Positions 7,701-26,165 are shown, counted from the first letter of the stretch. The stretch is 32,000 nucleotides of DNA from Candidatus Saccharimonadota bacterium (GCA_041659445.1 JBAZYG010000001.1:270001-302000), one strand, 5' to 3'. Notes: a model not told the origin generated them from the sequence alone. Program-made: numbers and translations.

Positions 7701-7772
7701 GCCTCGGTAGTATAATGGCTAGTACACGAGCCTGTCGCGCTTGAGACCCGGGTTCGATTCCCGGTCGGGGCG
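7701..7772 (+). tRNA. tRNA-Asp (anticodon GUC), no encoded CCA
   Basis: Hand-folded cloverleaf:
- acceptor GCCTCGG / TCGGGGC, with two G-T pairs
- D stem GTAT / GTAC
- anticodon stem CGAGC / GCTTG with loop CTGTCGC, giving anticodon GTC
- T arm CCGGG-TTCGATT-CCCGG
- discriminator G at 7772
It is a GC-rich island in AT-rich DNA. Confidence 0.9.
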
Positions 7773-7773
7773 T
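7762..7773 (+). repeat. attL core: CGGTCGGGGCGT (last 11 nt of tRNA-Asp plus 1)
   Basis: Exact 12-nt copy of 26154-26165 in the same orientation. A nearby TTGGAATTTT (7783-7792) also recurs at 26179-26188. Confidence 0.6.
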
Positions 7774-7857
7774 CTGGTCTTTTTGGAATTTTACAGGGTG
7801 TCTATATGTTCAAAATTTGTCCAAATCCTATTTAATTAAATTAGCCGTGGGGGTTGT

Positions 7858-9012
7858 ATGAAAATAGACCCCTATGATCATAAGAAAAAGTATCTTTCAT
7901 GGAAATCATCAATTAATGGCAAAATTCCTGAAATTTCTGAACAGAATTCTCAAATCATTCTTGATTATGTTTTTGATATGGAACATGGACTTAATGTTTC
8001 AAACGTAAGCAAAAAAGGAGCAAGAGGCTATCCAAGAATGAATAATCTCAAGCAAAGAATAATTTTTTTAGTAAAATTATTTGAAGAAAAATATGATTTA
8101 AAAGATATTACTCAAGTTTCTGAAAGAACTCTCCATGATTTTTTTACAAAAATGAGAAATGGAGATATAAGAAGATTAGATGGACAAGTTTATCAATCTT
8201 CAGGAGATTATGTAAAAGTATTCAAAGCTTTTTGGCACTGGTATCAAAAATCAAGTAGAAAAAAAGGCATTGAAGTTTTTGATCTTACTATCGATTTGGA
8301 TGCAAGTAAAGAAAAGCCAAAATGGGTTTATTTAACAGAAGATCAAGTCAAAAGATTAGTAGATAATGCAAAATTTGATTATAAAGTTCTTATAATGTTT
8401 CTTTATGATTCTGGAATTCGATCCCCTACAGAATTAATGAATGTTAAAGTATCAGATTTTTATAACAATTTCAAGGAATTAAATATAAGAGATGAAATAA
8501 GTAAAACTTTTGGAAGAAGAATTAAACTAATGCTTTGTCCCGACTTAATAAAGAGGTATGTTGAAGAAAAAAAATTAAAAGAAGAAGATTATCTTTTTAC
8601 AACTCTTCATTCAAATATGAATAAATATCTTAAAAGATTATCTACAAGAATATTTGGAGATGCTATGAGCCCTGCTGGTCAGAGATATTCTGAGTTAACC
8701 TTGTATGACTTTAGACATTGCTCATGCTGTTATTGGCTTCCAAGATATAAATCAGAATCTGCATTGAAATTTAGATTCGGATGGAAAAAATCAGATAAAA
8801 TACATTATTATTCAGAAATGCTTGGGATGAGAGATACAATTAGTGATGAAGATTTGTTAGTAGATCTTACTAAAACAGAAATTGAAAAAAGATTGCTTAA
8901 ATCTGAAAATGAAAAAAATGTTTTACAAGAAAGAGTTGATGTTTTAGAAAAACAAATGAAAATTATAGCTGAATTAGTTAAAAAAGGTGTCTGGGTTGTG
9001 AGTGATGATTAA
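7858..9012 (+). CDS. tyrosine recombinase / integrase
   Basis: 384 aa. DSGIRSPTELMNVKVSDF is the Arg-I box. LYDFRHCSCCYW is the H-x-x-R box. WKKSDKIHYYSEMLG holds the candidate catalytic Tyr. The gene starts 86 nt after the tRNA. Confidence 0.85.
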   Translation: MKIDPYDHKKKYLSWKSSINGKIPEISEQNSQIILDYVFDMEHGLNVSNVSKKGARGYPRMNNLKQRIIFLVKLFEEKYDLKDITQVSERTLHDFFTKMRNGDIRRLDGQVYQSSGDYVKVFKAFWHWYQKSSRKKGIEVFDLTIDLDASKEKPKWVYLTEDQVKRLVDNAKFDYKVLIMFLYDSGIRSPTELMNVKVSDFYNNFKELNIRDEISKTFGRRIKLMLCPDLIKRYVEEKKLKEEDYLFTTLHSNMNKYLKRLSTRIFGDAMSPAGQRYSELTLYDFRHCSCCYWLPRYKSESALKFRFGWKKSDKIHYYSEMLGMRDTISDEDLLVDLTKTEIEKRLLKSENEKNVLQERVDVLEKQMKIIAELVKKGVWVVSDD

Positions 9013-9039
9013 ACTTTAAAATTATCAATATTAAATTTG

Positions 9040-9171
9040 TTAATCTCTTCCTTCATCAGCACCATCTTCAAAACCATCTTCGTAGATTTTATTCAAAACA
9101 GTTTCAACTTCTTCATCTGTTTTTGAATTCTTGATGGCTTTTTTGAATTTTTCAAGATATTTGTCGGTCAT
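9040..9171 (-). CDS. small acidic protein (43 aa), hypothetical
   Basis: Below the ORF-track cut-off. The ATG at 9171 is preceded by GGAGGT with a 5-nt spacer. Sequence: MTDKYLEKFKKAIKNSKTDEEVETVLNKIYEDGFEDGADEGRD. It overlaps the methyltransferase stop by 20 nt, suggesting translational coupling. Confidence 0.35.
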   Translation of the reverse strand: MTDKYLEKFKKAIKNSKTDEEVETVLNKIYEDGFEDGADEGRD

Positions 9172-9811
9172 TTTTACCTCCTGTTTTATTTAATTGATCA
9201 ATCCATCTTTTATCTAATTCTATTCCAATCCATTTTCTATTATTTTCTTTACAAGCAATACACGTAGATCCTGTTCCACAAAAAGGATCTAAAATTAAGT
9301 CTCCTTCTTTTGAACTATGAAGTATCATTTTTGTGATTAAATCAATTGGTTTTTCATGAGGGTGATTTTCTTTATTATGATTAATATGACTGCAAGTTTG
9401 AACATCTGAAAAATCTTTTAAATTATATTTTGGATTTCCTTTTTCTAAAACCAAAATTAATTCATATTGGTGTCTAAATGCCCAACCCAACCCAAAATTA
9501 TGTTTTTTCCAAACAATTAAATGTCTAATTTTAAAATTAGTATATCTTAAGATAAATTCAGTTAAAAAAGGATAATGTTTCCAATTTGTGAATAAGTAAA
9601 GAGAAGAATTTTTCTTTAAAACTCTATAACATTCAACTAACGCAGAGCAATTAATTAATGGGTTCTCGTTATTTTTAATTATTTTATTATTCCAACCATA
9701 AGCAACATTATCCCCATAAGGAGGATCTGTAATAATTAAATTAATAGAATTATTTGGAAATTTTTTTAAAATTTCTATGCAATCTCCATGGATAATTTTA
9801 TTTTCTTCCAT
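9152..9811 (-). CDS. DNA methyltransferase, beta-class (N6-adenine or N4-cytosine), no cognate endonuclease nearby
   Basis: Motif IV IITDPPYG is near the N-terminus and motif I LDPFCGTGSTCIA is near the C-terminus. This circular permutation is typical of beta-class amino-methyltransferases. Confidence 0.9.
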   Translation of the reverse strand: MEENKIIHGDCIEILKKFPNNSINLIITDPPYGDNVAYGWNNKIIKNNENPLINCSALVECYRVLKKNSSLYLFTNWKHYPFLTEFILRYTNFKIRHLIVWKKHNFGLGWAFRHQYELILVLEKGNPKYNLKDFSDVQTCSHINHNKENHPHEKPIDLITKMILHSSKEGDLILDPFCGTGSTCIACKENNRKWIGIELDKRWIDQLNKTGGKNDRQIS

Positions 9812-9980
9812 CTTTTAAAAGGGTGTCCAATTTTTGTTCAATTTTGTCTAATTGAATATTTTCCTGGAGTTTTAATCTGCAATATTCTGAAACAGTTATC
9901 ATTTTCTTTTTTGCATTTAGTTTAAGCTTTTCGAGAAATTCTGTTGTTATTACAATATGCAGATGTGCATTCATTGCCAT
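9798..9980 (-). CDS. ribbon-helix-helix (CopG-like) DNA-binding protein, putative controller of the methyltransferase
   Basis: 60 aa. HLHIVITTEFLEKLKLNAKKKMITVSEYCRLKL fits a strand-helix-helix layout. The ORF overlaps the methyltransferase start by 14 nt. Confidence 0.45.
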   Translation of the reverse strand: MAMNAHLHIVITTEFLEKLKLNAKKKMITVSEYCRLKLQENIQLDKIEQKLDTLLKDGRK

Positions 9981-10191: not shown

Positions 10192-10353
10192 ATGGATAAA
10201 AGATGCATAATCTGCAATACTTTGATTGAAGAAGATGAAGATTTTTGTAAAACTTGTGTTGCAGTTTTGAGAAAAAAATATCCAAATAAGAAAAAATTGG
10301 AGGAAATCCTAAAATGGCACAAAAGCCAAGCAGAATTAAACAAAGAAGACTGA
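10192..10353 (+). CDS. small zinc-ribbon protein (53 aa), first gene of the transfer operon
   Basis: Below the track cut-off. ATG at 10192. MDKRCIICNTLIEEDEDFCKTCVAVLRKKY... carries CxxC-x12-CxxC. The ORF ends inside the next gene, whose ATG (10314) has a GGAGG upstream. Confidence 0.4.
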   Translation: MDKRCIICNTLIEEDEDFCKTCVAVLRKKYPNKKKLEEILKWHKSQAELNKED

Positions 10354-10655
10354 GAATAATTCCATTGTTAATTGTTTTAGCTTTAATGGTTATGCAAATA
10401 GGAATGGTTATTGCTGCAGACGAAGCTGATTTTGAGCAAGTTTTGCATCCTTTGACAACAATTTACAACTTAGTGAAATATGCAGCAACAATTATTGCAG
10501 GATTAGTCTTGCTTTTTTCAGGAATTACTTACATCACTAGTGGTTCAGATCCAGGAAAGCGTGAGAAAGCTAAGAATATGGCTATGTATGTTATAATCGG
10601 TCTTATTGTGATTTGGGCAGCACCTTTTGTGGTGGATTTAATTTTAGGAAACTAA
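10314..10655 (+). CDS. VirB2/TrbC/CedA1-like pilin candidate
   Basis: 113 aa. A basic leader plus hydrophobic segment ends in VIAAD, a signal-peptidase-like site. Two hydrophobic helices follow, joined by a short charged loop (TSGSDPGKREKAKN). This is the architecture of T4SS pilins. Confidence 0.5.
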   Translation: MAQKPSRIKQRRLRIIPLLIVLALMVMQIGMVIAADEADFEQVLHPLTTIYNLVKYAATIIAGLVLLFSGITYITSGSDPGKREKAKNMAMYVIIGLIVIWAAPFVVDLILGN

Positions 10656-10656
10656 A

Positions 10657-11040
10657 ATGAAAGGAAAGATTTTGTTTAATTTTTTATTTGCAGTTGCTTT
10701 TATTTTACCATTAGCAACTGCTTTTAATTGTACTGCATTAAATGGAGAGGAGCATAATTCTTGTATTTATATTGAAAATACAGATTGGTCTCAATCAGAC
10801 AAAGATTTAGTTATTCAAAATATTCTTGATTCAGGAGGGGTTTCACTTAATGGAGATTTTGAATCCATTTTTGATAAAGAAATAAATGATTCTATTAAAT
10901 TAAATAATATTGAGGAATCTGAATTAAAAATTGATAAAGAGAATAAGATATTTTTAATGAATTTTTCTTTAATTTCTTTGTTTGGATATTCTCTTTTCTC
11001 TTTTCTTAAAGGGTTTTATCTTAGATTCAAAAGAAAATGA
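10657..11040 (+). CDS. secreted/C-terminally anchored protein of the transfer module, hypothetical
   Basis: 127 aa. It has an N-terminal signal peptide (FLFAVAFILPLATAFN), an acidic Cys-containing ectodomain and a C-terminal TM helix. It starts 2 nt after the pilin stop and overlaps the next gene by 4 nt. Confidence 0.5.
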   Translation: MKGKILFNFLFAVAFILPLATAFNCTALNGEEHNSCIYIENTDWSQSDKDLVIQNILDSGGVSLNGDFESIFDKEINDSIKLNNIEESELKIDKENKIFLMNFSLISLFGYSLFSFLKGFYLRFKRK

Positions 11041-11858
11041 CTACTTGTGGAATTACTAATTTAGGTTCATGCTTAGTTGAAAAATTTTTTGAATTTATTG
11101 TTAATATATTAAACATGCCTGTTTCTCCTCTATTAAAATTAATAAACAATTTCATGATTGAACCTGTGAACATTAATCTTTTTGCAAGTACTTGGTCAAT
11201 AATTATTTACATTTTATCTTTATTTTATGGGATTTTTCTTTTAATTGTTGGATTTAAATTTTTAATTTCAGGACATTCTCCTGAAAAAAGAGAAGATGCT
11301 AAGAAAAATCTAGCCAACATTATAATAATGATGGTTTTAGTTCAAGCAAGTTTTTTTCTTTATGCTTTATGTTTAGATGTTGTTGCTTCAATGACTTCTG
11401 TGATTTTTAATTTAATTCCATCAGATTTCTTTTTAATTGCAACAGGAGGAATGGGAAATATTGGTTTAGATTTGGCTTTATTATTTCCTTATATTTTTAC
11501 CTTGTTAGCAACATTAATTTTTTTAGCATTAAGATATATTTGTGTTGGAGTTGGAGTTATTTTCTTTGCAATTGGAATTTTTCTTTATTTTTCAGGTTAT
11601 TTTAAATCATTTGGAAAATTAATTTTAAATTATTTAGGAGTTTTAATTTCTCTGCCTTTTATTTATTCAATTATTTTATTAGCATCATCTAAATTTTTAG
11701 AAATTAACACCTTTTCAGATGTTAAAATATTAGTTATGATTGGAGGATTTGGTCTTATTAATTTATTGACTATGTTTTTACTTTTATTTGTAATAGTTAA
11801 GGCTGCAAATTCAAAACCAGTAAATCAAATTGTAACGCTTGTAAAAGCAGTAGCATAA
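11037..11858 (+). CDS. polytopic membrane protein, VirB6/TrbL/CedA-like candidate
   Basis: 273 aa with about 6 TM helices. The position between the pilin and the VirB4 ATPase is typical for VirB6-type channel subunits. The first helical hairpin repeats the pilin loop motif (ISGHSPEKREDAKKN). Confidence 0.45.
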   Translation: MTTCGITNLGSCLVEKFFEFIVNILNMPVSPLLKLINNFMIEPVNINLFASTWSIIIYILSLFYGIFLLIVGFKFLISGHSPEKREDAKKNLANIIIMMVLVQASFFLYALCLDVVASMTSVIFNLIPSDFFLIATGGMGNIGLDLALLFPYIFTLLATLIFLALRYICVGVGVIFFAIGIFLYFSGYFKSFGKLILNYLGVLISLPFIYSIILLASSKFLEINTFSDVKILVMIGGFGLINLLTMFLLLFVIVKAANSKPVNQIVTLVKAVA

Positions 11859-11859
11859 A

Positions 11860-14778
11860 ATGTATGAAATACCGCAACAATTAGAATATAAAGAAAAAAT
11901 AGTCTTTGGATTAACTTTTCCACAATTAGCTTATGCTTTTGTATTTTTTCCTTTTGTATTTTCATTTTTGTTTAAAATAAATGCTAATATTTACACAAGA
12001 ATATTTTTAGCATTAATTCCAACACTTTTAGCTGTAGGATTTATGTTTTTTGATTTAAGTCAACATCTTAAAAATTGGTATTTTTGGTTAAAAACTCGAA
12101 AACTTAAAGAAGATAAATTAAAGAAAGTGTTAGAAATTGGAGAAATTAAAGATAATTTAATTCATTATAATAAAAAGAAAATTGCTGTTTTAAGAGTAGA
12201 ATCTTTAAATTTTTCAATAAAATCTCAAGGTGAACAAGAAGCAATAATGTTTTCATTTCAAAAATTCTTAAATTCAATTGACTTTCCAATACAAATTCTA
12301 ATGACTACTGAAACTTTGGATTTAGATATTTATCTTAAAAGTTTAGAGAAGAAATCATTAAATGAAAGAAATAAAGAAATTTTTAATTCTTATAAAGAGC
12401 ATATGCAGGATTTAATCAAACAAAATAGTGCAATGAATAGAAATTTTTATTTAGTAATTCCAGAATCTACAGATTTAAATATTCAAGTTAAACTTTGTGA
12501 AGAAAGGCTTCATAGTCTTAATCTTAAAACTTTTAGATTAAATGATGCTCAATTAAAAAGTATTTTTATTAAGATATTTAATGAAAATTCTAAGAATTTT
12601 CTTCCAAAAGAAATTAATAATTTTCCTGATTTTTTAGAGGTTGATAAAAAATTTCATAAAATAATTTATGCTCATGGATATCCTAGATCTGTTGAAAAAG
12701 GATTCTTAGATAAATTAATTAGTTGCTCTGGAAATTTTGATTTTTCTCTGCATATTATTCCTCAACCAATTGAAAAAACAATGATTTTATTAAATAGAGA
12801 GTTAAAAAAACAAAGAGCAGATCTTTATGCATCTAAACTAAAAAATCAATTTAATCCAAGTCTTGAAATAAAATATAAAGATACTAAAAATATTCTTGAA
12901 GATTTACAAAAAGGAAATGAAAAGCTGTTTAATATGGGTTTTTACATTAATTGTAGAGCAGATAGTTTAGATGAACTTAGATTATTAGTTAGAAAGATTG
13001 AATCAGAATTAAATTCTCTTTTAATTATTCCAAAGCAACCTAATTTTCAAATGATTCAAGGATTTAAATCATGCTTGCCTTTAGCTAAAGATTTTTTAAA
13101 AGTAACTAGAAATATAACAACCTCTGCTTTGTCTGCATTTTTTCCTTTTACTTCTTCTTTTTTTAAATTTGATGAAACAGGCATTTGGTTAGGATTAAAT
13201 AAAAACAATATTCCAATAATTAGAGATATTTTTAAATTATCAAATTCAAATGGAATTTGCTTAGCAAGTTCTGGAGCTGGAAAATCGTATATGGCTAAAT
13301 TGTTCATTACAAGGCATTTGTTAAACAATACAAAAGTTATGATTATTGATCCTCAAAGTGAATATAAAAATATAGTTTCAAAGTTTAATGGTCAAAGAAT
13401 TAATTTATCAAGAACTTCTGAAACAATGATTAATCCTCTTGATTTAATGGGGCATGATTATTCTGAAAAAAGGCTTTCTTTAATGGATTTAATGCCTGTA
13501 ATGTTAGGGCAATTAACAGAACCTCAAAAATCTTTTATTGATCAAGCTTTAACAGAAGCTTATGAAAGAAAAGGAATCTATATGAATGATAGGGCAAGTT
13601 GGGCAAATGAGCCCCCAATTTTGGGAGATGTCTTAAAAATCCTAGAAAAGATAGAGAAAAAAGCAATTAGCCTAGAAAAAACCACAATAAGGAGTTTAAT
13701 AAATCGTTTAAGATTATATGTTGATGGAGTTTTTTCTTTTTTAAACAGACATACAAATATTGATTTTAAAAATAATTTTGTATGCTTTGATATTGGAAAT
13801 ATGCCTAAACAAGTTAAGCCTACAATTATGTTTCTTGTTTTAGATTATGTTTATATGAAAATGAAAAGAGATCTTGAGAGAAAATTGCTGGTTATTGACG
13901 AAGCATGGACTTTACTTTCAAGAGCGGAAGAAGCATCTTATATTTTTGAAATTGTTAAGACTTGTAGAAAATTTAATATGGGGTTATTTTTAATTAATCA
14001 AGAAGTTGAAGGAATGCTAAATTCAGAAGCAGGAAGATCTGCTTTAGCAAATTCTTCATATACCATTTTGTTAAGGCAAAAACCTGCTGTAATTGAAAGT
14101 GTTCAAAAAGTATTTCATTTAAGTAATGTTGAAAGAATTGCTCTTTTAACTGCAGGAGTTGGAGAAGGAATTCTTTTAATGGAAGATGAGCATTCTGAAT
14201 TAAAAATAATTGCTTCAAAAGAAGAGCATAAGCAAATTACTACAAATGCTGACGAATTACTTGAAGCAGAATATGAAGAAAATTCGAAAAGTCAAAAGGT
14301 AAATATTAATGTTGATGAATTTCAGAGAGTTCATAAATCTAAAGATTTAACAAAAGAAGATAAAAAGTATTTATTAAAAAAAGGATTTAAAGAAGAATCT
14401 TTCAAAAGTCTTTCTTTAAATAAAAATGAAAATTATTTTGTTAAACCTAGATTTAATGAAACTTCTAAACATTTATTTGTGGTTTATGATATTAAAAATT
14501 ATTTTGAGAAAAAAGGGATTTCAGTAGAACTTTATGCAACAAAAAAACCAGATATTGTTTTTAATATTAAAAATAAAAAATTTGCAATTGAAGTTGAAAC
14601 TGGATCAATGTTAAATCAAAAGAAATTTTTTAAAGAAAAATTAAATTTACTAAATAAGAATTATGATAAATGGTTTTTTGTTGTAACAGACAGAAATAAA
14701 ACTAAATCTTATAAAAAATATGGAGAGTCAGTAGATTTAAGATATTTGAAACAGAGACTTTCTAAAATCCGTCGATAA
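11860..14778 (+). CDS. VirB4/TrbE-family conjugation ATPase with N-terminal VirB3/PrgI-like membrane segment and C-terminal PD-(D/E)xK-like domain
   Basis: 972 aa.
- N-terminus: KEKIVFGLTFPQLAY plus two TM helices, which is PrgI/VirB3-like.
- Walker A: GICLASSGAGKSYMAKL.
- Other ATPase-core segments: VMIIDPQSEY and GLFLINQ.
- Walker B: LLVIDEAWTLL.
- C-terminal ~120 aa: KKPDIVFNIKNKKFAIEVETGS. Confidence 0.85.
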   Translation: MYEIPQQLEYKEKIVFGLTFPQLAYAFVFFPFVFSFLFKINANIYTRIFLALIPTLLAVGFMFFDLSQHLKNWYFWLKTRKLKEDKLKKVLEIGEIKDNLIHYNKKKIAVLRVESLNFSIKSQGEQEAIMFSFQKFLNSIDFPIQILMTTETLDLDIYLKSLEKKSLNERNKEIFNSYKEHMQDLIKQNSAMNRNFYLVIPESTDLNIQVKLCEERLHSLNLKTFRLNDAQLKSIFIKIFNENSKNFLPKEINNFPDFLEVDKKFHKIIYAHGYPRSVEKGFLDKLISCSGNFDFSLHIIPQPIEKTMILLNRELKKQRADLYASKLKNQFNPSLEIKYKDTKNILEDLQKGNEKLFNMGFYINCRADSLDELRLLVRKIESELNSLLIIPKQPNFQMIQGFKSCLPLAKDFLKVTRNITTSALSAFFPFTSSFFKFDETGIWLGLNKNNIPIIRDIFKLSNSNGICLASSGAGKSYMAKLFITRHLLNNTKVMIIDPQSEYKNIVSKFNGQRINLSRTSETMINPLDLMGHDYSEKRLSLMDLMPVMLGQLTEPQKSFIDQALTEAYERKGIYMNDRASWANEPPILGDVLKILEKIEKKAISLEKTTIRSLINRLRLYVDGVFSFLNRHTNIDFKNNFVCFDIGNMPKQVKPTIMFLVLDYVYMKMKRDLERKLLVIDEAWTLLSRAEEASYIFEIVKTCRKFNMGLFLINQEVEGMLNSEAGRSALANSSYTILLRQKPAVIESVQKVFHLSNVERIALLTAGVGEGILLMEDEHSELKIIASKEEHKQITTNADELLEAEYEENSKSQKVNINVDEFQRVHKSKDLTKEDKKYLLKKGFKEESFKSLSLNKNENYFVKPRFNETSKHLFVVYDIKNYFEKKGISVELYATKKPDIVFNIKNKKFAIEVETGSMLNQKKFFKEKLNLLNKNYDKWFFVVTDRNKTKSYKKYGESVDLRYLKQRLSKIRR

Positions 14779-17371: not shown

Positions 17372-17372
17372 T

Positions 17373-20688: not shown

Positions 20689-21349
20689 CTTCTTTTACCT
20701 CCTCAGTATAGCTATATTTTCTTTCAGGTTTCGCTGAAATCTTTTTTATTTTTTCTTTTGAAATAATCCAAATATCAGAACCATGAACTAATGGGTGACC
20801 TACGCAATATAAATTATCCACTGCAATATTCCCTAAACACCTGTTGCAAAAATCATAAAATCTTTCTCCCATATCCGAAAATTTAAGATTGTTTATATTA
20901 GTTAATTCTTCTTTTATTTCTCCAAGACGAGTATTCTCATTAAATGTTCCAATAAAATTTTTACAATTAACCGAATTTTTTATCTCCTTTGTTTCAAATT
21001 TATTATTTTTGTCTTTCCTTATCTGAAATCCTTTTTGAGAAGATTTGTCTATAACTAAAAATTGTTCATCTGTAATCGTGAGAAAAATATTTTTTAGTTT
21101 AATCTCAAGATATTTTTTAAAATCCTCAAAGTTGAGATATTGTTTTGCATCATCAATTATATCGCTTAAAATTTTTTCATCTCCAGAACCAACAAAAAAT
21201 AAATTATGATTAATTCCTTTTATTTTTTCAATACTATCTGAAAATACTGAGATATCGCTTTGAGATTCTGCTTTAAATTTAGAAACAGCTTTTTTGTCTG
21301 CAACTATAACCCAAGCGTCTTTTATTGGAAATGTAAATGCGAGAGTCAT
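20681..21349 (-). CDS. proteasome-beta/HslV-like Ntn-hydrolase candidate (Thr directly after Met)
   Basis: 222 aa. MTLAFTFPIKDAWVIVADKKAV...IEKIKGINHNLFFVGSGDEKI parallels the proteasome-beta/HslV N-terminus: T1, Asp/Glu17 and K-I-x-x-I...[AS]-G-x-x-x-D. Asp falls at mature position 17. This is a motif-level resemblance only. Confidence 0.4.
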   Translation of the reverse strand: MTLAFTFPIKDAWVIVADKKAVSKFKAESQSDISVFSDSIEKIKGINHNLFFVGSGDEKILSDIIDDAKQYLNFEDFKKYLEIKLKNIFLTITDEQFLVIDKSSQKGFQIRKDKNNKFETKEIKNSVNCKNFIGTFNENTRLGEIKEELTNINNLKFSDMGERFYDFCNRCLGNIAVDNLYCVGHPLVHGSDIWIISKEKIKKISAKPERKYSYTEEVKEDD

Positions 21350-21813
21350 TTTTTCTTCCTCTTTGATTTAGATAATAAATTGAAATTATGATTAATCATT
21401 AAATCCAAGAATATAAAATAAATTATCATAAAAATATGAACCCCAAATAAAATCTTTGAATAATTGTATGATATAACTGTTGAATAAATAAATTCTACAA
21501 TAAAAATAATACTTATAACTGCAAAAAATTTCCATGAATAAATATAATCAAATTCTTTTCCAGCATCATTTATTTGGTCTTTCCAATTTCTTAACAAAGG
21601 TTTGTTTTTATCTTTCTGTTTAAGTCTATTTTTCATCATTACCTTTATCTTTCCTTCTAAATCTGTTTTGTAAACTTCCATAATAGCAAGAATTGCTAAT
21701 CCTGCAAAGAATAACCACATAGGACTTTTTGTCAAATAAAAAGTAATCAACGGCAAAATAAATAATGCCTGATGAATCTTTTTCTTATCTGTGAAAAAAT
21801 CAATTATTTTCAT
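21346..21813 (-). CDS. small integral membrane protein (~4 TM), hypothetical
   Basis: 155 aa. Two hydrophobic hairpins are separated by a basic loop (MMKNRLKQKDKNKPLLRNWKDQ). ATGA overlaps occur at both ends. Confidence 0.5.
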   Translation of the reverse strand: MKIIDFFTDKKKIHQALFILPLITFYLTKSPMWLFFAGLAILAIMEVYKTDLEGKIKVMMKNRLKQKDKNKPLLRNWKDQINDAGKEFDYIYSWKFFAVISIIFIVEFIYSTVISYNYSKILFGVHIFMIIYFIFLDLMINHNFNLLSKSKRKKK

Positions 21814-22060: not shown

Positions 22061-24811
22061 CTATTTCCACTTTAAGCTATTACACTTTTGGACTAATTTC
22101 TCTAATTGTTCTTTACTAAACGCATCTAAAGGTCTTCCTTCTGCTAAGGGATGTTCTGCAAAATTCTTTAATTCAACATGCTTAGCTCTCACAAAAACCT
22201 GTTCCAATAATCTTAAAAATTTTAATTGCTGAGAATTATAATGCTCATTTTTATCCATCACAAATTTATCAAATTCCCATTTAATCATCTCTTGGGGGTC
22301 AGGCAATCCCTTGACTTCTAATAAATCTCTTAAAAATAAAATAAAGTCTTTACTTTGTTGAATATTGTCAATTGTCAACATAGGATTTAATTCTCTTAGT
22401 TTCTTTTCAATAACTAAAAGTTCTTTTGATGTAACCCCTTCACCATCTTTAATTTTTTGCATTAAAGAATTATTACTTAAGAAAGTCTTGAAATCTTCAT
22501 CTTCTTTAAGTTCCATTGCTTCTTTCTCAACTTTCAGAACTACATCGGGAGCATTAACTCTTATCATTCCTTTTCTTTCCTCTTCATAAAAAATCATTAA
22601 AGGAGAAATTTCTCTAACTAAAAAATCAACATCTTCAAAAGTAATATCCTCCCAGAAAGGTTCTTTTTGAATTCTTATAAGATCGTCTCTTTTTTGTTTT
22701 ATTGCATCTAAATTTTTATCCCAAATTGCTTCTGCTCTTGTAACAACAAATTCTTCAATCTTAGCAATTTTGTTTTTATTTCCTGTTTTAATGCAATCAA
22801 AGAGTTTAACACATTGAGAGATAAAACCATAAACTTTTGAATTCTCCGACGGAGTATAAATTAAAAGAGGGGCTATTTCATTTCTTAATTCTTCAATATG
22901 TTCCTTTAAATCAAATTTGGAAGAGATGACTTTTTTAATTATGTTTTTCTTTTCAATAACCAAAGGAGATTCAATATCAATTTCCTTAATTGTGTCTATG
23001 ATTTGTTTCTCTACTACTTTTCTTTCTTTTTCACTTAGATTCTTTTCTAAAGTATCAACTTGTTCTAAAAAGATTCTTGTCTTAGCATCTGTTCCAGAGG
23101 ATTTTTGCTTTATAGCGTTCAATTTATGAACCAATATATTTGAGTAATCTCCAAACTTAAAGTCTAATATTAAAAAATCTTCTTTTATGTGCTGTCCATC
23201 TTTATCTGTTGGCAACCATTCTTTATTTTCACAAGCAGATAAACTTCTTGTTCCTCTTCCTAACATTTGCCAGAATCTGATAGAAGACATTACGGGTTTA
23301 ACAAAAACTAAGTTCATTACTTCAGGAACATCAACCCCAGTATCTAAAACTCCAACAGATAAAGCAATTCTTGGGCTATCTCTTTTTTCAAATCTCTTAA
23401 CTTCATCCATATAACGAGATTTGTCCGAAGTAATAACTTTTACATCCTTTGCCAAAGAAGGATAAAGTCTTTGGAATAATTTTTCCAAAGATTCTGCATG
23501 TTTTATACTTGCACAGAAGAATATACTTTTGCAGGGTCTATTATCATCTGATTTATAACACCGATCTACAAATTCTCGGATAATTAATTCATTAGTCTTT
23601 TCATCTGTAAAAAATCTTTCAAATTTAGAACCTGGTGTTTGAAATTTCTCTGGATCTTCTTCTTGTTGCTTTAATGCTTGTTGTAATTCTTTATTCAATT
23701 TTTTCCCTTCAATTCCTAATGAAAGAACACTTGTCTCAATAATTTCTGCTACATAAGGAGCTAATATCTTATCTCTTACTGCTGAATCATAGTCATACTT
23801 GAATGTGGGTTTTTCATTATTACAATTAAATAAATCAAAAGTATTTCTTGTTTCCTCTGAAGAAGGTGTTGCAGTTAGTCCAACTTTTAACGCATCAAAA
23901 TATTTGAAAATATCATTATTTTTATCATAGTAAGAACGGTGTGCTTCATCAAAGATAATTAAGTCAAATGCTCCTGGACCAAATTTTTCATAAAACTTTC
24001 CTCTTGGTTTTTGAGGAGACATTAAAGTTTGAATTGTGGAAACATAAAATCTTGCACTGCTTGAATAACCTTCCTCATTTAATTCACAAACCGGTGTTTC
24101 TGGAAAAAATTTCTTAAATCCTTTTTCTTTAGCTTGATTCCCTAAAGAAATTCTATCAACAACAAATAAAACTTTTTGAGCATATTCTGATTTTATTAAA
24201 CAATCTATTAAAGCCATTGCAACTCTTGTTTTTCCTGTTCCTGTAGCCATATTAATTAAAGCCTCTCGATGTCCCTTAGAAAAGTGTTCTAATACTATCT
24301 TAACTGCTTCAACACATGTTTTTCTATTTAAAATAGTAGAACTTACCTTAACATTTACAGGATCCTTTCTTTTTTTCATCAAACTGATTATCCTATGTAA
24401 ATCTTTTTGTGAAAATGGTAAGAGAACTTTTCTTCTCCTATCTAAGTCATCAACATAATACCAATTTGTTCCATTAGTTAAGAAAATAGGAATTTTGATT
24501 TTAATTTGTTTTTCAATATCTTCTCTATAAGTCCTTGCCTGAATTTCTCCTTTTTCAACGCTCACTGAAGTTTTTTTTGCTTCTACAATTGCGAGAGGGC
24601 TTCTATCTTCATCTAATAATAAATAGTCTATAAATCGGTCAACATTTTTTTCTATTCCAACCTCAAGACCTACATATTCTTTAGTTAAAAAATTAGATTT
24701 AACTGGATTAATCTCTTCCTTGACATAATGTCCTTTAACTTTCCATCCTGTTCTTTCTAAAATTGGATCTATCAATTCTTTTCTCGTTTCTTTCTCAGAG
24801 AGATTTGTCAT
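22061..24811 (-). CDS. hsdR: type I restriction enzyme endonuclease/translocase subunit
   Basis: 916 aa.
- N-terminal HSDR_N nuclease: RKELIDPILERTGW and DYLLLD...AIVEAKK.
- SF2 motif I: NMATGTGKTRVA.
- SF2 motif II: LIIFDEAHRS.
- Later helicase motifs: GLTATP and QMLGRGTR.
- C-terminal EcoEI_R_C-like helical tail. Confidence 0.92.
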   Translation of the reverse strand: MTNLSEKETRKELIDPILERTGWKVKGHYVKEEINPVKSNFLTKEYVGLEVGIEKNVDRFIDYLLLDEDRSPLAIVEAKKTSVSVEKGEIQARTYREDIEKQIKIKIPIFLTNGTNWYYVDDLDRRRKVLLPFSQKDLHRIISLMKKRKDPVNVKVSSTILNRKTCVEAVKIVLEHFSKGHREALINMATGTGKTRVAMALIDCLIKSEYAQKVLFVVDRISLGNQAKEKGFKKFFPETPVCELNEEGYSSSARFYVSTIQTLMSPQKPRGKFYEKFGPGAFDLIIFDEAHRSYYDKNNDIFKYFDALKVGLTATPSSEETRNTFDLFNCNNEKPTFKYDYDSAVRDKILAPYVAEIIETSVLSLGIEGKKLNKELQQALKQQEEDPEKFQTPGSKFERFFTDEKTNELIIREFVDRCYKSDDNRPCKSIFFCASIKHAESLEKLFQRLYPSLAKDVKVITSDKSRYMDEVKRFEKRDSPRIALSVGVLDTGVDVPEVMNLVFVKPVMSSIRFWQMLGRGTRSLSACENKEWLPTDKDGQHIKEDFLILDFKFGDYSNILVHKLNAIKQKSSGTDAKTRIFLEQVDTLEKNLSEKERKVVEKQIIDTIKEIDIESPLVIEKKNIIKKVISSKFDLKEHIEELRNEIAPLLIYTPSENSKVYGFISQCVKLFDCIKTGNKNKIAKIEEFVVTRAEAIWDKNLDAIKQKRDDLIRIQKEPFWEDITFEDVDFLVREISPLMIFYEEERKGMIRVNAPDVVLKVEKEAMELKEDEDFKTFLSNNSLMQKIKDGEGVTSKELLVIEKKLRELNPMLTIDNIQQSKDFILFLRDLLEVKGLPDPQEMIKWEFDKFVMDKNEHYNSQQLKFLRLLEQVFVRAKHVELKNFAEHPLAEGRPLDAFSKEQLEKLVQKCNSLKWK

Positions 24812-24885
24812 AATTTTTTTAGGATTTATATAGATTTAAGGTTTTCTGAAATTAATTATTCTAATAAAATGGAAAAAAGGGTTTT

Positions 24886-25098
24886 TTACAAATAATCCTC
24901 GTCTTTTTTCAAATATCCTTTATTTTTCAAACCTTCGACAACAGAAGTTCTAATTGCATCTTGGATGGTGTATCTTGGAAATTTCTTTCTTTTATCTTTA
25001 ACTCTTTTTTCTAAAGCTATTTCTACAGTTTTAGGAAGTCTAACTCCTAAGGGTTTTCCATAGGTTGGTTTTTTAGATAGTGTCATCTTTGTGGACAC
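24886..25098 (-). CDS. ribbon-helix-helix-like small protein upstream of hsdR (putative regulator)
   Basis: The 70-aa ORF has a GTG start at 25098; an ATG alternative is at 25086. KPLGVRLPKTVEIALEKRVK...YTIQDAIRTSVVEGL fits a strand-helix-helix layout. It lies 74 nt upstream of hsdR on the same strand. Confidence 0.4.
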   Translation of the reverse strand: MSTKMTLSKKPTYGKPLGVRLPKTVEIALEKRVKDKRKKFPRYTIQDAIRTSVVEGLKNKGYLKKDEDYL

Positions 25099-25228
25099 GT
25101 ATAAGGTGATAGGAAGTATATAAATCTTTTGTTAACAACAAATAACATTAAATTACATATAAAAACATTTATAATACCAAAAACCTAAAAGATTTTAGAT
25201 TAGGGGTGTGAGGTGATAAAAACCACCT

Positions 25229-25504
25229 ATGGGAAAGGAATCTTCAAGACCCCTTATACCACGAAAGATAATCAGTGTAAAAGGAAAAGTACATTATAGC
25301 GAAAGCAATCAGGCTTGGAATATTATTAAGCTAAAATCAGAATTCTTAAATGAATTTCAACAATTAAAAGAAAAAAGGTCTAAATTCTCTTATGAAATGA
25401 TCTTTGGACGAACAGAAGCAGAAATGATTGAAGCAATAAAGAAAATTATAAATGATAAGAATTTAATGCCTATTTTGATGTTTTTGTATAAAGAGGGAGA
25501 ATGA
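25229..25504 (+). CDS. hypothetical protein
   Basis: 91-aa ORF with GAGGTGAT upstream; no motif recognised. Confidence 0.4.
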   Translation: MGKESSRPLIPRKIISVKGKVHYSESNQAWNIIKLKSEFLNEFQQLKEKRSKFSYEMIFGRTEAEMIEAIKKIINDKNLMPILMFLYKEGE

Positions 25505-25511
25505 AAAGCAT

Positions 25512-25976
25512 TTAATTTAAACTAAAATGTCCAGTTTCCCAATTTGTTTTTCCACTTTTTTTAATTACCCCATGTGTATGGGTTATAATCACCTCAAATC
25601 TTATTAACCCTTTATTATCAAATAATTTTTTAAATTCTTCATCAGTAAAATCTAATGTACACTCAAATGTTCTTGAATTATGTCCTAATATTTCAGTTTC
25701 AATAAAAAAAGGTGCTTCTTGGAAAATGTTTCCCGTTCCAATAAGAATTTCTTCAATAGTAGTAGGATTATTTGAAAGATTTCTTAATCTTATTTTAACC
25801 CCTATCTGTTCTAAACACCTAGCTGTAGTCACACCAAACCCATGTCTTTGAAAATAAGCACTTTCTAATTTTAATTTTGGTTTATTTTTTATTATATGCC
25901 AAATCAAACTTATTATTCCTGTAAAAGATCCAATTATCCCTGTAATTAAACTTATAATTGTTATTAAGTTTTCCAT
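25512..25976 (-). CDS. N-terminally membrane-anchored hypothetical protein
   Basis: 154 aa. One TM helix (LITIISLITGIIGSFTGIISLIWHII) followed by a probably beta-rich domain. It is the last gene before attR. Confidence 0.45.
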   Translation of the reverse strand: MENLITIISLITGIIGSFTGIISLIWHIIKNKPKLKLESAYFQRHGFGVTTARCLEQIGVKIRLRNLSNNPTTIEEILIGTGNIFQEAPFFIETEILGHNSRTFECTLDFTDEEFKKLFDNKGLIRFEVIITHTHGVIKKSGKTNWETGHFSLN

Positions 25977-26153
25977 TCTAATTATATTGAAGGGTCAATT
26001 TTAATATTTTACTCTTTTTAGTTACTTATTATCCATATACTCCATCTCGACAAGATTTATAAATCATCGAGAGCACACAACAGCGATGGAAAAAATAAAT
26101 AATTATCTCGATAAAAACAGATTCTCACTAATTTCCCACAATCGTCCATTATA

Positions 26154-26165
26154 CGGTCGGGGCGT
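26154..26165 (+). repeat. attR core: CGGTCGGGGCGT (copy of the tRNA-Asp 3' end)
   Basis: Exact 12-nt match to 7762-7773 in the same orientation. It is the only other GC-rich stretch of this kind that I could find in the window, and it lies in a non-coding gap. Confidence 0.6.

What the first reader, a model, noticed from the sequence alone, without database searches (positions are those of the whole stretch)
7701..26165. ~18.4-kb integrated element at tRNA-Asp, bounded by a 12-nt direct repeat
CGGTCGGGGCGT occurs at 7762-7773 (the tRNA 3' end) and again at 26154-26165 in a non-coding gap. A 12-mer with nine G/C bases is very unlikely to recur by chance in DNA this AT-rich. A second shared 10-mer, TTGGAATTTT, lies 10 and 14 nt downstream of the two copies. 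An intact tyrosine integrase starts 86 nt after the tRNA. Everything between the repeats is accessory: a methyltransferase, DNA-transfer genes and R-M. This fits the pNOB8-type mode of archaeal integration, in which the int gene stays intact and the tRNA is reconstituted. Conjugative-type integrated elements in small AT-rich (possibly DPANN) archaea are poorly documented.
Basis: partly seen in the sequence, partly recalled or inferred. Interest (0 to 1): 0.7.

Follow-up and report, generated by a model that had tools for sequence, protein, structure and literature searches.

The report
Integrated mobile element in DPANN archaeon
An 18.4-kb mobile DNA element sits at the end of a tRNA-Asp gene in a tiny Pacearchaeota-type (DPANN) archaeon; it belongs to a large, apparently undescribed family of such elements that carry their own integrase, a DNA methylase and a stripped-down DNA-transfer machine.

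Summary
CGGTCGGGGCGT occurs only at 7762-7773 (last 11 nt of tRNA-Asp plus 1) and at 26154-26165, with 0 matches in 100 shuffles. The second 10-mer is not above chance on its own.

The host is a DPANN archaeon. The integrase has more than 2,000 homologs (top 120 at 63-79% identity). In 41 of 70 informative loci it lies at a fixed distance from a same-strand tRNA or tRNA T-arm: ARAGORN tRNAs there, most with an ~82-90 nt gap to the integrase.

Three other elements have their own 13-16-nt repeat of the same part of their tRNA. One 965-kb contig carries a tandem pair separated by core copies. The order int, methylase, pilin, VirB6-like, VirB4 recurs in many loci. A 91-aa gene and a promoter-like block recur at the attR end. 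Two related genomes keep the left-flank synteny with an unoccupied tRNA-Asp.

No strict empty site or circular form was found, and the right flank is ORFan. The transfer module is minimal: VirB3-VirB4 fused to a PD-(D/E)xK nuclease, with no coupling protein or relaxase. Conjugation is therefore inferred, not shown. I rate it a new variant of a known kind, interest about 0.6.

The parts
7701..7772 (+). tRNA-Asp(GTC), the integration target; intact and full length
   Evidence: ARAGORN; Rfam RF00005, 59.6 bits, model positions 1-71/71
7762..7773 (+). attL core, CGGTCGGGGCGT: last 11 nt of the tRNA plus 1 nt
   Evidence: Exact 12-mer with 2 copies in the window and 0 in 100 shuffles. L105, L124 and L151 repeat the same part of their tRNA.
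7774..7802 (+). Element-side arm next to the core (CTGGTCTTTTTGGAATTTTACAGGGTGTC). It matches a family-wide pattern, TTTTGGCA/TTTTGTGA ... AGGG(C/T)GT. Inferred to be an integrase-binding site.
   Evidence: Upstream regions of 70 integrase loci read side by side. The function is inferred.
7830..7841 (+). TATA-like box (ATTTAATTAAAT) 17-28 nt before the integrase ATG; inferred proximal int promoter
   Evidence: Sequence. An A/T-rich box sits at the same place in relatives. Inferred.
7858..9012 (+). Tyrosine integrase, 384 aa, intact
   Evidence: Pfam Phage_integrase 30.2 bits, above the 27.1 cut-off. PHROG integrase 4e-16. PDB XerA/XerC-like E ~3e-4. Invariant R188, K216/K223, Y283-x-x-R286, W309, Y317 across 20 homologs. 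2,381 homologs.
9152..9811 (-). Orphan N4/N6 DNA methyltransferase; a backbone gene of the family
   Evidence: Pfam N6_N4_Mtase 1e-36. Found in 27 of 80 integrase loci; the 14 best matches are 77-83% identical.
9798..9980 (-). 60-aa small ORF, ribbon-helix-helix-like by eye
   Evidence: Translation. No family hit. Weak.
10314..10655 (+). VirB2/TrbC-like T4SS pilin, 113 aa
   Evidence: Pfam T4SS_pilin 1e-15 and TrbC 2e-9. Found in 15 related loci.
10657..11040 (+). 127-aa secreted/membrane protein of the transfer module, function unknown
   Evidence: Conserved position in 8 related loci. No family hit.
11037..11858 (+). 273-aa polytopic membrane protein with a pilin-like N-terminus; VirB6-like by topology
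   Evidence: Pfam T4SS_pilin 6e-7. NCBIfam Mbov_0395 pilin-like, weak. Multi-TM sequence. Found in 11 related loci.
11860..14778 (+). VirB3-VirB4 ATPase fused to a C-terminal PD-(D/E)xK nuclease domain, 972 aa
   Evidence: NCBIfam CD1110-family VirB4 316 bits and Mycoplasma ICE VirB4 298 bits over aa 4-793. Pfam PrgI at the N-terminus, TraG P-loop, DUF87. L112 is 81% identical.
14335..14775 (+). Nuclease domain of the VirB4 fusion (aa 826-972)
   Evidence: Invariant E42, H46, P72-D73, E86, E88. AF2 pLDDT 93.5. Foldseek hits are almost all PD-(D/E)xK nucleases, best E 3.5e-3. Stand-alone homologs exist, some next to integrases.
14832..16283 (-). Type I R-M methylase HsdM (cargo)
   Evidence: Pfam N6_Mtase 1e-65 and HsdM_N. 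83% identical in the tRNA-Gly element L095.
16286..17371 (-). 361-aa membrane-anchored metzincin-like protease (HEIGHIFGLIH) embedded in the R-M operon
   Evidence: Sequence motif. Weak PDB matches to myroilysin and fragilysin.
17373..18524 (-). Type I R-M specificity subunit HsdS
   Evidence: Pfam Methylase_S 3e-12
18511..21813 (-). Three unknown cargo ORFs (725, 222 and 155 aa) between hsdS and hsdR. The 725-aa protein has a C-terminal D...FEVK nuclease-like motif.
   Evidence: No hit in Pfam, PADLOC, NCBIfam, PHROGs or PDB. Motif read by eye. Absent from the 80 related loci.
22061..24811 (-). Type I R-M restriction subunit HsdR
   Evidence: Pfam ResIII 1e-36, HSDR_N, EcoEI_R_C. 96% identical over 411 aa in the tRNA-Glu element L090.
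24886..25098 (-). 70-aa ribbon-helix-helix-like small protein (by eye)
   Evidence: Translation. No family hit.
25229..25504 (+). 91-aa conserved right-end protein of the element family, function unknown
   Evidence: Homologs in 13 loci. It lies just inside attR in L105 and L124, and before the second core copy in L137. No PDB match. AF2 model unusable.
25512..25976 (-). 154-aa membrane-anchored protein, function unknown
   Evidence: Translation. Weak PHROG hits of unknown function.
26036..26088 (+). Conserved BRE/TATA-like promoter block (…CTCGACAAGATTTATAAAT…CACACA…CGATG) pointing at the attR core. After excision it would lie upstream of the core and int.
   Evidence: Unique in the window. 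The same block lies ~115 nt before the attR core in L124. It sits directly at the int ATG in the tRNA-less class. The function is inferred.
26154..26165 (+). attR core, CGGTCGGGGCGT, with no tRNA body upstream
   Evidence: no similarity to the tRNA upstream of the core

Best explanation
**What it is.** Positions 7762-26165 hold an integrated mobile element: 18,392 bp counting one core copy. It belongs to a large DPANN-specific family.

**How it integrated (shown in part).** The element's tyrosine integrase (7858-9012) recombined a 12-nt core on the circular element with the identical last 11 nt (+1) of the chromosomal tRNA-Asp gene. The element supplies the same 3' end, so the tRNA stays intact. 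The displaced copy of the core is left at 26154-26165. The integrase gene is not split. The repeat, the geometry and their recurrence across the family are shown.

**Element structure.**
- Backbone: core and arm site, int, an orphan N4/N6 methylase, and at the far end a 91-aa protein and a promoter-like block aimed at the core.
- Transfer module: VirB2-like pilin, a 127-aa protein, a VirB6-like membrane protein, and a VirB3-VirB4 ATPase fused to a PD-(D/E)xK nuclease.
- Exchangeable cargo: a type I R-M system with four extra genes.

**What is inferred.**
- Excision by the same integrase would rejoin the promoter block upstream of int.
- The pilin/VirB6/VirB4 set most likely moves the excised element between cells, ICE-like. 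I put this at about 0.45, against about 0.35 for DNA import or host interaction.
- The fused nuclease may process the DNA in place of a relaxase.
- The methylase may protect incoming DNA from restriction.
For: **Repeat and tRNA:**

**Integrase:** intact, with invariant catalytic-type residues.

**Host:** DPANN.

**Family geometry:**
- 41 of 70 loci with at least 130 nt upstream have a tRNA or T-arm at a fixed distance from int. In most of the 30 ARAGORN-called cases the tRNA-int gap is ~82-90 nt.
- Targets are Asp, Glu, Gln, Gly and Tyr.
- Many contigs break 60-370 nt before int.

**Independent complete elements:** L105 (16-nt repeat, 7.1 kb), L124 (14 nt, 5.3 kb) and L151 (13 nt, 8 kb) each repeat the same part of their own tRNA.

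**Tandem pair:** two T4SS-bearing elements on one contig are separated by core copies 24.5 kb apart.

**Gene order:** int, MTase, pilin, 127 aa, 273 aa, VirB4 recurs in up to 27 loci.

**Right end:** the 91-aa gene and the promoter block recur just inside attR.

**Occupied and unoccupied sites:**
- Left-flank synteny with an unoccupied tRNA-Asp in L005 and L007.
- The same site is occupied by a related element in L160.

**Cargo exchange:** the R-M cassette is 96% and 81-83% identical in elements at other tRNAs whose integrases are only 66-71% identical.

**T4SS assignments:**

**Nuclease domain:**
Against: - No empty-site allele and no attP junction was found. The attR/empty-site 25-mer is absent from JGI metagenomes. 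All public contigs with the exact proteins carry the element. None of the related contigs is circular.
- The right flank cannot be compared. Its first solid gene is an ORFan, and no right-flank gene has a homolog near tRNA-Asp in relatives.
- The core is short, at 12 nt.
- The int-T4SS half has the same 4-mer composition as the host.
- No coupling protein (VirD4/TraG/FtsK-like) or relaxase was detected in any ORF. Self-transfer is therefore not established.
- Structural matches for the nuclease are weak (best E 3.5e-3, TM at most 0.47).
Confidence: 0.82

Rival explanations
1. The element is integrated as described, but its pilin/VirB6/VirB4-nuclease module is cargo that serves the cell. It would act either as a Ced/Ted-like DNA-import apparatus or as a contact/secretion device of a DPANN symbiont towards its host, not as a machine that transfers the element itself.
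For: - The gene set (VirB2-like pilin, VirB6-like, VirB4; no coupling protein, no relaxase) equals the minimal set described for the archaeal Ced/Ted import systems (PMC9905601).
- VirB4-like proteins in Nanohaloarchaeota have been proposed to act on host cells (PMC10266531).
- In Patescibacteria, similar reduced MPF-FATA-derived systems are nearly universal and not obviously conjugative (PMC12102498).
- Smaller family members move without any T4SS genes (L105, L124, L151).
Against: - The module is tightly linked to the integrase in a conserved order across many loci and hosts. This is what is expected of a backbone function of a mobile element.
- An orphan methylase that is more conserved than the integrase sits beside it, as in transmissible elements.
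- Archaeal conjugative plasmids and thaumarchaeal ICEs also lack relaxases (PMC6563490).
Confidence: 0.35
2. The island is a fixed, no longer mobile remnant. The repeat records an old integration, and the element is now inherited vertically as part of the chromosome.
For: - All public contigs of this population carry it, and no empty site or circle was found.
- The int-T4SS half is compositionally indistinguishable from the host.
- No replication, coupling or relaxase genes are present.
Against: - The two core copies are still identical.
- The integrase is full length with all family-invariant residues.
- All backbone ORFs are intact.
- Relatives sit at five different tRNA species, in tandem, and are absent from the same site in related genomes.
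- An HsdR 96% identical in another element shows recent exchange.
Confidence: 0.2
3. The true island is larger or composite. The 18.4-kb element inserted in front of an older, integrase-less element or remnant, so the mobile region extends beyond 26165 into the ORFan block (26255 to about 29533).
For: - The sequence just right of the attR core (TTTTTGG…CTTGGAATTTTGAGGATGG) resembles the element-side arm that follows the core at attL and in relatives.
- The right-flank genes are ORFans, or at least absent near tRNA-Asp in relatives.
- Remnant or tandem att copies are seen in relatives: L088, L104, L134, and L126/L137.
Against: - No third core copy exists in the window, even with 3 mismatches in 13.
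- The arm similarity is only marginally above chance (p = 0.025; 8% of random pairs). It could also reflect ordinary core-flanking integrase sites shared by attB and attP.
- The right flank matches the left flank in GC.
Confidence: 0.3
4. The 12-mer recurrence is a coincidence, and the integrase happens to lie next to a tRNA.
For: The repeat is short, and no extended similarity flanks it.
Against: - 0 of 100 shuffles give any second copy.
- The same tRNA-int geometry recurs in 41 of 70 informative loci.
- Three other elements have matching repeats.
- The attR end shares a conserved gene and block with those elements.
Confidence: 0.01

Closest known systems
pNOB8-type (intact-int) archaeal integration at tRNA genes, e.g. 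integrated Sulfolobus plasmids
   Same: A tyrosine recombinase. The attP core is identical to the 3' end of a tRNA gene. The int gene stays whole after integration, the tRNA is reconstituted, and short direct repeats bound the element.
   Different: - No sequence relationship to known integrases could be shown. There was no hit in the plasmid, phage or IMG/VR collections, and the best PDB match is XerA at E ~3e-4.
- The core is very short (12-16 nt).
- The host is DPANN, not Sulfolobales.
Thaumarchaeal integrative-conjugative elements (Krupovic 2019, PMC6563490) and Sulfolobus conjugative plasmids
   Same: Archaeal elements integrated at tRNA genes. They carry VirB4, VirB6/VirB3-like proteins and pilins, and have no detectable relaxase.
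   Different: - Those elements are much larger (median 64 kb).
- They carry a VirB4 + VirD4/TraG pair, plus TFIIB and ParB.
- Here the element is 18.4 kb, has no VirD4-like coupling protein, and its VirB4 is fused to a nuclease.
MPF-FATA type IV secretion systems of Firmicutes/Mollicutes ICEs (CD1110-family and Mycoplasma Mbov_0397 VirB4) and the derived Patescibacteria T4SS (PMC12102498)
   Same: - The best family matches of the VirB4 are CD1110 (316 bits) and Mbov_0397 (298 bits, full length including the VirB3-like N-terminus).
- The pilin-like protein matches Mbov_0395.
- The T4SS_pilin domain is present.
   Different: - Identity to plasmid VirB4s is only 24-32%, and both NCBIfam scores fall below their cut-offs.
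- There is an extra C-terminal PD-(D/E)xK domain.
- No VirB8-like protein, hydrolase, coupling protein or relaxase is present.
Ced/Ted DNA-import systems of Crenarchaeota (PMC9905601)
   Same: A minimal set of VirB2-like pilin, VirB6-like membrane protein and VirB4-like ATPase, without a coupling protein or relaxase.
   Different: Ced/Ted are described there as DNA-import systems of the cell, not as parts of a mobile element. Here the module sits inside an integrase-bounded mobile element. Sequence-level relatedness to CedB/TedB was not tested.
SSV-type archaeal integration (fuselloviruses)
   Same: Integration at the 3' part of a tRNA gene by a tyrosine recombinase.
   Different: In the SSV type the int gene is split by integration. 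Here it is whole. Only a promoter-like block, not an int fragment, is separated to the far end.

Membership tests
tRNA-targeting integrative element with intact-int (pNOB8-type) integration mode | Encodes a tyrosine recombinase with the catalytic residues | tested here: met
   Pfam above cut-off. PHROG integrase 4e-16. R188, K216/K223, Y283-x-x-R286, W309 and Y317 are invariant in 20 homologs.
tRNA-targeting integrative element with intact-int (pNOB8-type) integration mode | Element bounded by direct repeats that duplicate the 3' end of an intact tRNA gene | tested here: met
   The same is seen in L105, L124 and L151.
tRNA-targeting integrative element with intact-int (pNOB8-type) integration mode | The integrase gene is not partitioned by integration (attP lies outside int) | tested here: met
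   A full-length 384-aa ORF that aligns from residue 1 with ~384-aa homologs. The core lies 84 nt upstream of the ATG.
tRNA-targeting integrative element with intact-int (pNOB8-type) integration mode | Integrase sequence belongs to the pNOB8 integrase clade | not testable with these tools
   No pNOB8 sequence was at hand. There were no hits in the plasmid or phage collections.
tRNA-targeting integrative element with intact-int (pNOB8-type) integration mode | An empty site and/or an excised circular form exists | tested here: inconclusive
   No exact empty site or attR in JGI metagenomes. The right flank is ORFan. No circular relatives were found. tRNA-Asp is unoccupied in the related genomes L005 and L007, but with a different downstream flank.
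SSV-type integrase elements | The int gene is split into N- and C-terminal parts at the two ends of the integrated element | tested here: not met
   int is whole. The small ORF at attR (26086-26175) shares only a promoter block with int genes of relatives, plus marginal N-terminal similarity.
Integrative and conjugative element (ICE) | Integration/excision module | tested here: met
   Integrase plus att sites
Integrative and conjugative element (ICE) | VirB4-family ATPase with mating-pore components | tested here: met
   VirB4, VirB2-like pilin, and a polytopic VirB6-like protein
Integrative and conjugative element (ICE) | Type IV coupling protein (VirD4/TraG/FtsK-like) | tested here: not met
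   No such domain in any of the 16 element ORFs of 70 aa or more
Integrative and conjugative element (ICE) | Relaxase / oriT | tested here: not met
   No relaxase domain. Known archaeal conjugative elements also lack one.
Integrative and conjugative element (ICE) | Demonstrated cell-to-cell self-transfer | not testable with these tools
   Requires experiments
MPF-FATA class T4SS | VirB4 groups with the CD1110/Tn916-like/Mollicutes VirB4 families | tested here: inconclusive
   The best NCBIfam hits are CD1110 (316 bits against a cut-off of 325) and Mbov_0397 (298 against 590). The best plasmid hits are the Firmicutes CD1110 family at 24-32% identity. No phylogeny was made.
Ced/Ted archaeal DNA-import systems | VirB4-like CedB/TedB with VirB6-like and VirB2-like partners, and no coupling protein | tested here: inconclusive
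   The gene content matches. Sequence relatedness to CedB/TedB and the direction of transport were not tested.
Type I restriction-modification system | HsdR, HsdM and HsdS subunits encoded together | tested here: met
   The operon is interrupted by four unrelated ORFs.

The most novel reading that the evidence does not exclude
This is one member of a DPANN-wide family of small self-transmissible elements that move DNA between cells with a radically reduced conjugation machine: pilin, a VirB6-like channel, and a VirB3-VirB4 motor fused to a PD-(D/E)xK nuclease. In this reading the nuclease replaces both relaxase and coupling protein, for example by cutting or resolving double-stranded element DNA at the pore. 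A promoter that is rejoined to the integrase gene only in the excised circle would act as an excision-state switch. Such elements could also be the vehicle for gene flow between DPANN symbionts and their hosts.
Probability: 0.2. Interest if true: 0.85.

Novelty: new variant of a known kind. Interest (0 to 1): 0.6.

Why it matters
Mobile elements of DPANN archaea are hardly documented. Archaeal conjugation is known in detail only from Sulfolobales plasmids, and by inference from thaumarchaeal ICEs.

This locus anchors a very large integrase family: more than 2,000 homologs, with the top 120 at 63-79% identity. The family has a fixed tRNA-int geometry, defined ends and a recurrent minimal T4SS module. 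That gives a concrete, delimitable model for three questions:
- how ultra-small symbiotic archaea exchange DNA;
- how defence cassettes (here a type I R-M, nearly identical in an element at another tRNA) are shuffled between elements;
- whether a VirB4-nuclease fusion can substitute for the missing relaxase and coupling protein.

The att sites, the promoter block and the nuclease domain are all directly testable in vitro.

Tried and rejected
**Searches that led nowhere**
- Exact attR/empty-site 25-mer in JGI metagenomes: no hit.
- Empty-site search from the right flank: the 244-aa gene is an ORFan and the 109-aa gene is not on record.
- Exact-protein contig look-ups: only the same strain, with the element.
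- Circular relatives by terminal overlap: none.
- IMG/VR scans with the integrase and with VirB4: nothing.
- Integrase against the phage and plasmid collections: nothing.
- PADLOC, PHROGs, NCBIfam and PDB sequence searches for the 725-, 361-, 222-, 155-, 154-, 91- and 70-aa ORFs: nothing useful, except a weak metzincin signal for the 361-aa protein.
- Profile searches of PDB with the integrase, nuclease-domain and 91-aa alignments: no hits.
- Single-sequence AF2 model of the 91-aa protein: pLDDT 52, unusable.

**Ideas considered and rejected**
- A bacterial (CPR) host. The T4SS_pilin domain and the Firmicutes-like SerRS suggested it. Archaeal MAG neighbours and synteny rejected it.
- SSV-type split integrase. 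A promoter and ATG at attR suggested it. It was rejected because int is full length and the fragment's coding similarity is marginal.
- tRNA-less relatives as a refutation of tRNA targeting. Rejected because they carry the reverse-complemented tRNA-Asp core 0.45-2.3 kb upstream of int and occur in tandem between core copies.
- The shared 10-mer as independent statistical evidence. Rejected.

Full report
**1. Observation**

The window contains one tRNA gene. ARAGORN calls tRNA-Asp(GTC) at 7700-7774. Rfam places a full-length tRNA at 7701-7772 with 59.6 bits.

CGGTCGGGGCGT is exact at 7762-7773 and 26154-26165. It has no other copy on either strand, even with one mismatch, and no match in 100 dinucleotide-preserving shuffles. 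A 13-mer search with up to 3 mismatches finds only these two sites. The repeat covers the last 11 nt of the tRNA plus one base.

Upstream of the second copy there is no similarity to the tRNA body.

The downstream flanks align no better than 2.5% of shuffles or 8% of random window pairs. It is not independent statistical support.

GC is 0.268 inside against 0.240 and 0.247 outside. By 4-mer distance, the int-T4SS half (0.149) equals the host null (0.154 ± 0.016). Only 19.8-25.8 kb (0.215) exceeds the null maximum of 0.189.

**2. Host**

The flanking seryl-tRNA synthetase is closest (62-68% identity) to Woesearchaeota/Nanoarchaeota MAGs, followed at about 61% by Firmicutes. The left-flank genes (two 102-aa ORFs, a Na+/H+ exchanger, SerRS) are syntenic in those archaeal MAGs. 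NCBI names the exact integrase and a right-flank protein as Candidatus Pacearchaeota archaeon, on a contig of 486 kb. The guess of a small AT-rich DPANN archaeon is correct.

**3. Gene content between the repeats**

- A 384-aa tyrosine integrase.
- An N4/N6 DNA methyltransferase.
- A VirB2/TrbC-like pilin (T4SS_pilin 1e-15).
- A 127-aa secreted/membrane protein.
- A 273-aa polytopic protein with a pilin-like N-terminus (VirB6-like).
- A 972-aa VirB4. Its aa 4-793 match the full length of the Mycoplasma ICE VirB4 model (298 bits) and the CD1110 family (316 bits), and it has a VirB3/PrgI-like N-terminus.
- A type I R-M system (HsdR, HsdS, HsdM) interrupted by four ORFs:
  - a membrane-anchored metzincin-like protein with HEIGHIFGLIH;
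  - a 725-aa protein with a C-terminal D...FEVK motif;
  - a 222-aa ORF;
  - a 155-aa ORF.
- Small genes at the right end: a 70-aa RHH-like protein, a 91-aa protein and a 154-aa protein.

No ORF has a coupling-protein (VirD4/TraG/FtsK) or relaxase domain.

**4. The family gives the decisive support**

*Size and conservation.* The integrase has 2,381 homologs at E ≤ 1e-5. The top 120 are 63-79% identical, about 384 aa long, and carry only archaeal, mostly DPANN, source labels where named (one is labelled Methanococcoides sp. SA1).

*Fixed tRNA-int geometry.* Eighty metagenome loci were fetched.
- ARAGORN finds a same-strand tRNA within 500 nt upstream of the integrase in 30 of them, in most with a gap of ~82-90 nt. 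Asp-GTC is the majority; Glu-TTC, Gln-CTG, Gly-GCC and Tyr-GTA also occur.
- Counting tRNA T-arms that ARAGORN missed, 41 of 70 loci with at least 130 nt of upstream sequence show the same geometry.
- Many contigs end 60-370 nt before the integrase, as expected at a variable junction.

*Independently delimited elements.* Three loci with enough downstream sequence carry their own far-end repeat of the same part of their own tRNA:

| Locus | tRNA | Repeat | Element size |
|---|---|---|---|
| L105 | Asp | 16 nt | 7.1 kb |
| L124 | Gln | 14 nt | 5.3 kb |
| L151 | Glu | 13 nt | 8 kb |

*Conserved backbone.* tblastn of the window's proteins against these loci shows that the order int, MTase, pilin, 127 aa, 273 aa, VirB4 is conserved.
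- The MTase occurs in 27 loci; its 14 best matches are 77-83% identical.
- VirB4 is 81% identical in L112, 73% in L126 and L137, and 64% in L160.
- The 91-aa gene (25229-25504) occurs in 13 loci. It lies just inside attR in L105 and L124.

*Right-end block.* A promoter-like block (…CTCGACAAGATTTATAAAT…) sits about 115 nt before the attR core in both the window and L124.

*Occupied and unoccupied sites.* L160 shares the window's left-flank synteny and has a related element at the same tRNA-Asp. L005 and L007 share the synteny and have tRNA-Asp with no integrase or element gene within about 9 kb.

*Cargo varies.* L105, L124 and L151 carry an aminotransferase-methyltransferase fusion, tandem wHTH regulators, or a 1,712-aa beta-helix surface protein. 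The R-M cassette is shared at 96% (HsdR, L090, a tRNA-Glu element) and 81-83% (L095, a tRNA-Gly element). The integrases of those elements are only 66-71% identical. So the cassette moves between elements.

**5. A possible refutation, resolved**

Several T4SS-bearing relatives (L114/L116, L121, L123/L126, L137) have no tRNA next to int. Instead they have the promoter block directly at the ATG. Homology between these loci stops about 80 nt upstream of int.

However, 0.45-2.3 kb upstream lies a conserved ACGCCCCAACCG(CCGTGAC). This is the reverse complement of the tRNA-Asp core CGGTTGGGGCGT. L126 and L137 are on one 965-kb contig. The 19-mer occurs there at 216,361 and 240,832, 24.5 kb apart, with the 91-aa gene just before the second copy.

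These are tandem elements that use the same kind of core in the opposite orientation. They are not integrations at non-tRNA sites.

**6. Integrase**

Twenty homologs share invariant R188, K216/K223, Y283-x-x-R286-H287, W309 and H316-Y317-Y318. This fits the tyrosine-recombinase catalytic set.

The protein is very divergent:
- Pfam scores 30 bits.
- The best PDB matches are XerA and XerC-like proteins at E ~3e-4.
- There are no hits in the phage, plasmid or IMG/VR collections.

The gene is whole after integration, so the mode is intact-int (pNOB8-like) and not SSV-like.

A 29-codon ORF starts at 26086 behind the block and runs through the attR core. In the predicted attP it becomes 55 codons and ends in an ATGA overlap with the int start. 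It is not conserved in L124, and I give it no weight.

**7. VirB4 C-terminal domain**

Residues 826-972 lie beyond all VirB4 models.
- They have 50 homologs, mostly stand-alone proteins of 140-260 aa. A few are annotated CoiA_nuc, Vsr or Holliday junction resolvase.
- Stand-alone copies lie beside integrases in L089 and L151.
- Invariant residues are E42, H46, P72-D73, E86 and E88.
- The AF2 model has pLDDT 93.5.
- Its Foldseek matches are almost all PD-(D/E)xK nucleases: Cdn1, YaeQ, the R2 endonuclease, OkrAI, Hjc, PspGI, EcoRV and RecU. The scores are weak, with best E 3.5e-3 and TM at most 0.47.

I take the fold assignment as likely and the function as unknown.

**8. Mechanism**

*Shown:*
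- a tRNA-3'-end core duplicated at both ends;
- an intact integrase at a family-fixed distance from the core;
- conserved left and right ends;
- occupancy of different tRNAs, tandem arrays and unoccupied sites in relatives.

*Inferred:*
- integrase-mediated attP x attB recombination within the 12-nt core, and the reverse reaction for excision;
- the arm motif as an integrase-binding site;
- the far-end block as a promoter that is rejoined to int only in the circle;
- the methylase as protection of transferred DNA;
- the pilin/VirB6/VirB4-nuclease set as the transfer apparatus (about 0.45), rather than a Ced/Ted-like importer or a host-contact device (about 0.35).

**9. Comparison with what is known**

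Archaeal conjugative or integrated conjugative elements are documented for Sulfolobales plasmids and for thaumarchaeal ICEs. The latter have a median size of 64 kb, a VirB4 + VirD4 pair and no relaxase (PMC6563490).

Reduced VirB2/VirB6/VirB4 systems are known as Ced/Ted importers (PMC9905601) and as the MPF-FATA-derived system of Patescibacteria (PMC12102498). VirB4-like domains in Nanohaloarchaeota giant proteins have been proposed to act on hosts (PMC10266531).

Six full-text searches found no description of integrase-bounded T4SS elements in Pacearchaeota or Woesearchaeota. A library search cannot prove absence.

I therefore rate this as a new variant of a known kind. The integration logic is ordinary. 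The host group, the size of the family, the missing coupling protein and the VirB4-nuclease fusion are not.

**10. Limits**

- No strict empty site or excised form was found.
- The right flank is unique to this genome. It carries an arm-like motif that may mark an older remnant.
- No phylogenies were made.
- All functional statements beyond integration are inference.

Noticed in passing
window 3844-5139: The seryl-tRNA synthetase of this archaeon is bacterial-like. After four to six Woesearchaeota/Nanoarchaeota MAGs (59-68% identity), the next best matches are dozens of Firmicutes at 57-61%. This suggests an old bacteria-to-DPANN transfer of a core translation gene.
   Followed up: no
window 5269-7604: Four genes lie between SerRS and tRNA-Asp: a 181-aa ORF, an 83-aa ORF, a 376-aa sulfotransferase and a 102-aa ORF. 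They have no counterpart in related genomes, where the tRNA follows SerRS within 0.55-0.95 kb. This may be a second variable insertion on the other side of the tRNA.
   Followed up: partly
window 26166-29533: The right flank consists of genes with no Pfam match apart from a precomputed HTH_45 hit on the 90-aa ORF. The 244-aa protein's only database hit is itself. The flank starts with a sequence resembling the element-side arm of attL (TTTTTGG…CTTGGAATTTTGAGGATGG). It may be the remnant of an older element, but no third core copy was found.
   Followed up: partly
window 16286-21813: The type I R-M operon is interrupted by four unrelated ORFs: a multi-TM protein with a metzincin HEIGHIFGLIH motif, a 725-aa helical protein with a C-terminal D...FEVK nuclease-like motif, a 222-aa protein beginning MT-LAF (Ntn-hydrolase-like by eye), and a 155-aa membrane protein. 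None matches PADLOC, Pfam, PHROGs or PDB, and none occurs in the 80 related loci. This could be an unrecognised defence add-on.
   Followed up: partly
L090 2513-3745; L095 11179-20472: HsdR is 96% identical to the window's in L090, directly behind a tRNA-Glu integrase that is only 71% identical. HsdM and HsdR are 81-83% identical in the tRNA-Gly element L095. The R-M cassette is exchanged between elements faster than the backbones diverge.
   Followed up: partly
L126 and L137 (contig Ga0208977_1000003, 216-254 kb): Two related T4SS-bearing elements lie in tandem. They are separated by copies of ACGCCCCAACCGCCGTGAC (the reverse-complemented tRNA-Asp core) 24.5 kb apart. The integrase points away from the nearer core, the opposite arrangement to the window.
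   Followed up: partly
L086, L089, L098, L101, L112, L118 (about 110 nt upstream of int): A T-arm plus acceptor 3' end is present, preceded by odd sequence, and ARAGORN calls no tRNA. These may be intron-containing or split archaeal tRNAs, or tRNA genes disrupted at the junction.
   Followed up: no
L088 54-572; L104 5128-5361; L134, L131 and L163 upstream of int: Two successive core-plus-arm copies occur in front of one integrase, with no gene between them. They look like scars of earlier integrations or deletions at the same tRNA.
   Followed up: no
window 26086-26175: A 29-codon ORF (MEKINNYLDKNRF…) starts right after the promoter block and reads through the attR core. In the predicted excised circle it would extend to 55 codons and end in an ATGA overlap with the integrase start. 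It is not conserved in L124.
   Followed up: partly
window 8850-9012 (integrase aa ~330-384): The integrase family has a conserved C-terminal extension of about 55 aa that looks like a coiled coil (…TKTEIEKRL…QERV…LEKQMK…), beyond the catalytic tyrosine. This is unusual for tyrosine recombinases.
   Followed up: no
L123, L126, L137 (VirB4 region): In these relatives the VirB3-like N-terminus (aa 1-107) and the VirB4 body (from about aa 86-105) match as separate, overlapping tblastn segments. VirB3 and VirB4 may be separate genes there and fused in the window, or there is a frameshift.
   Followed up: no
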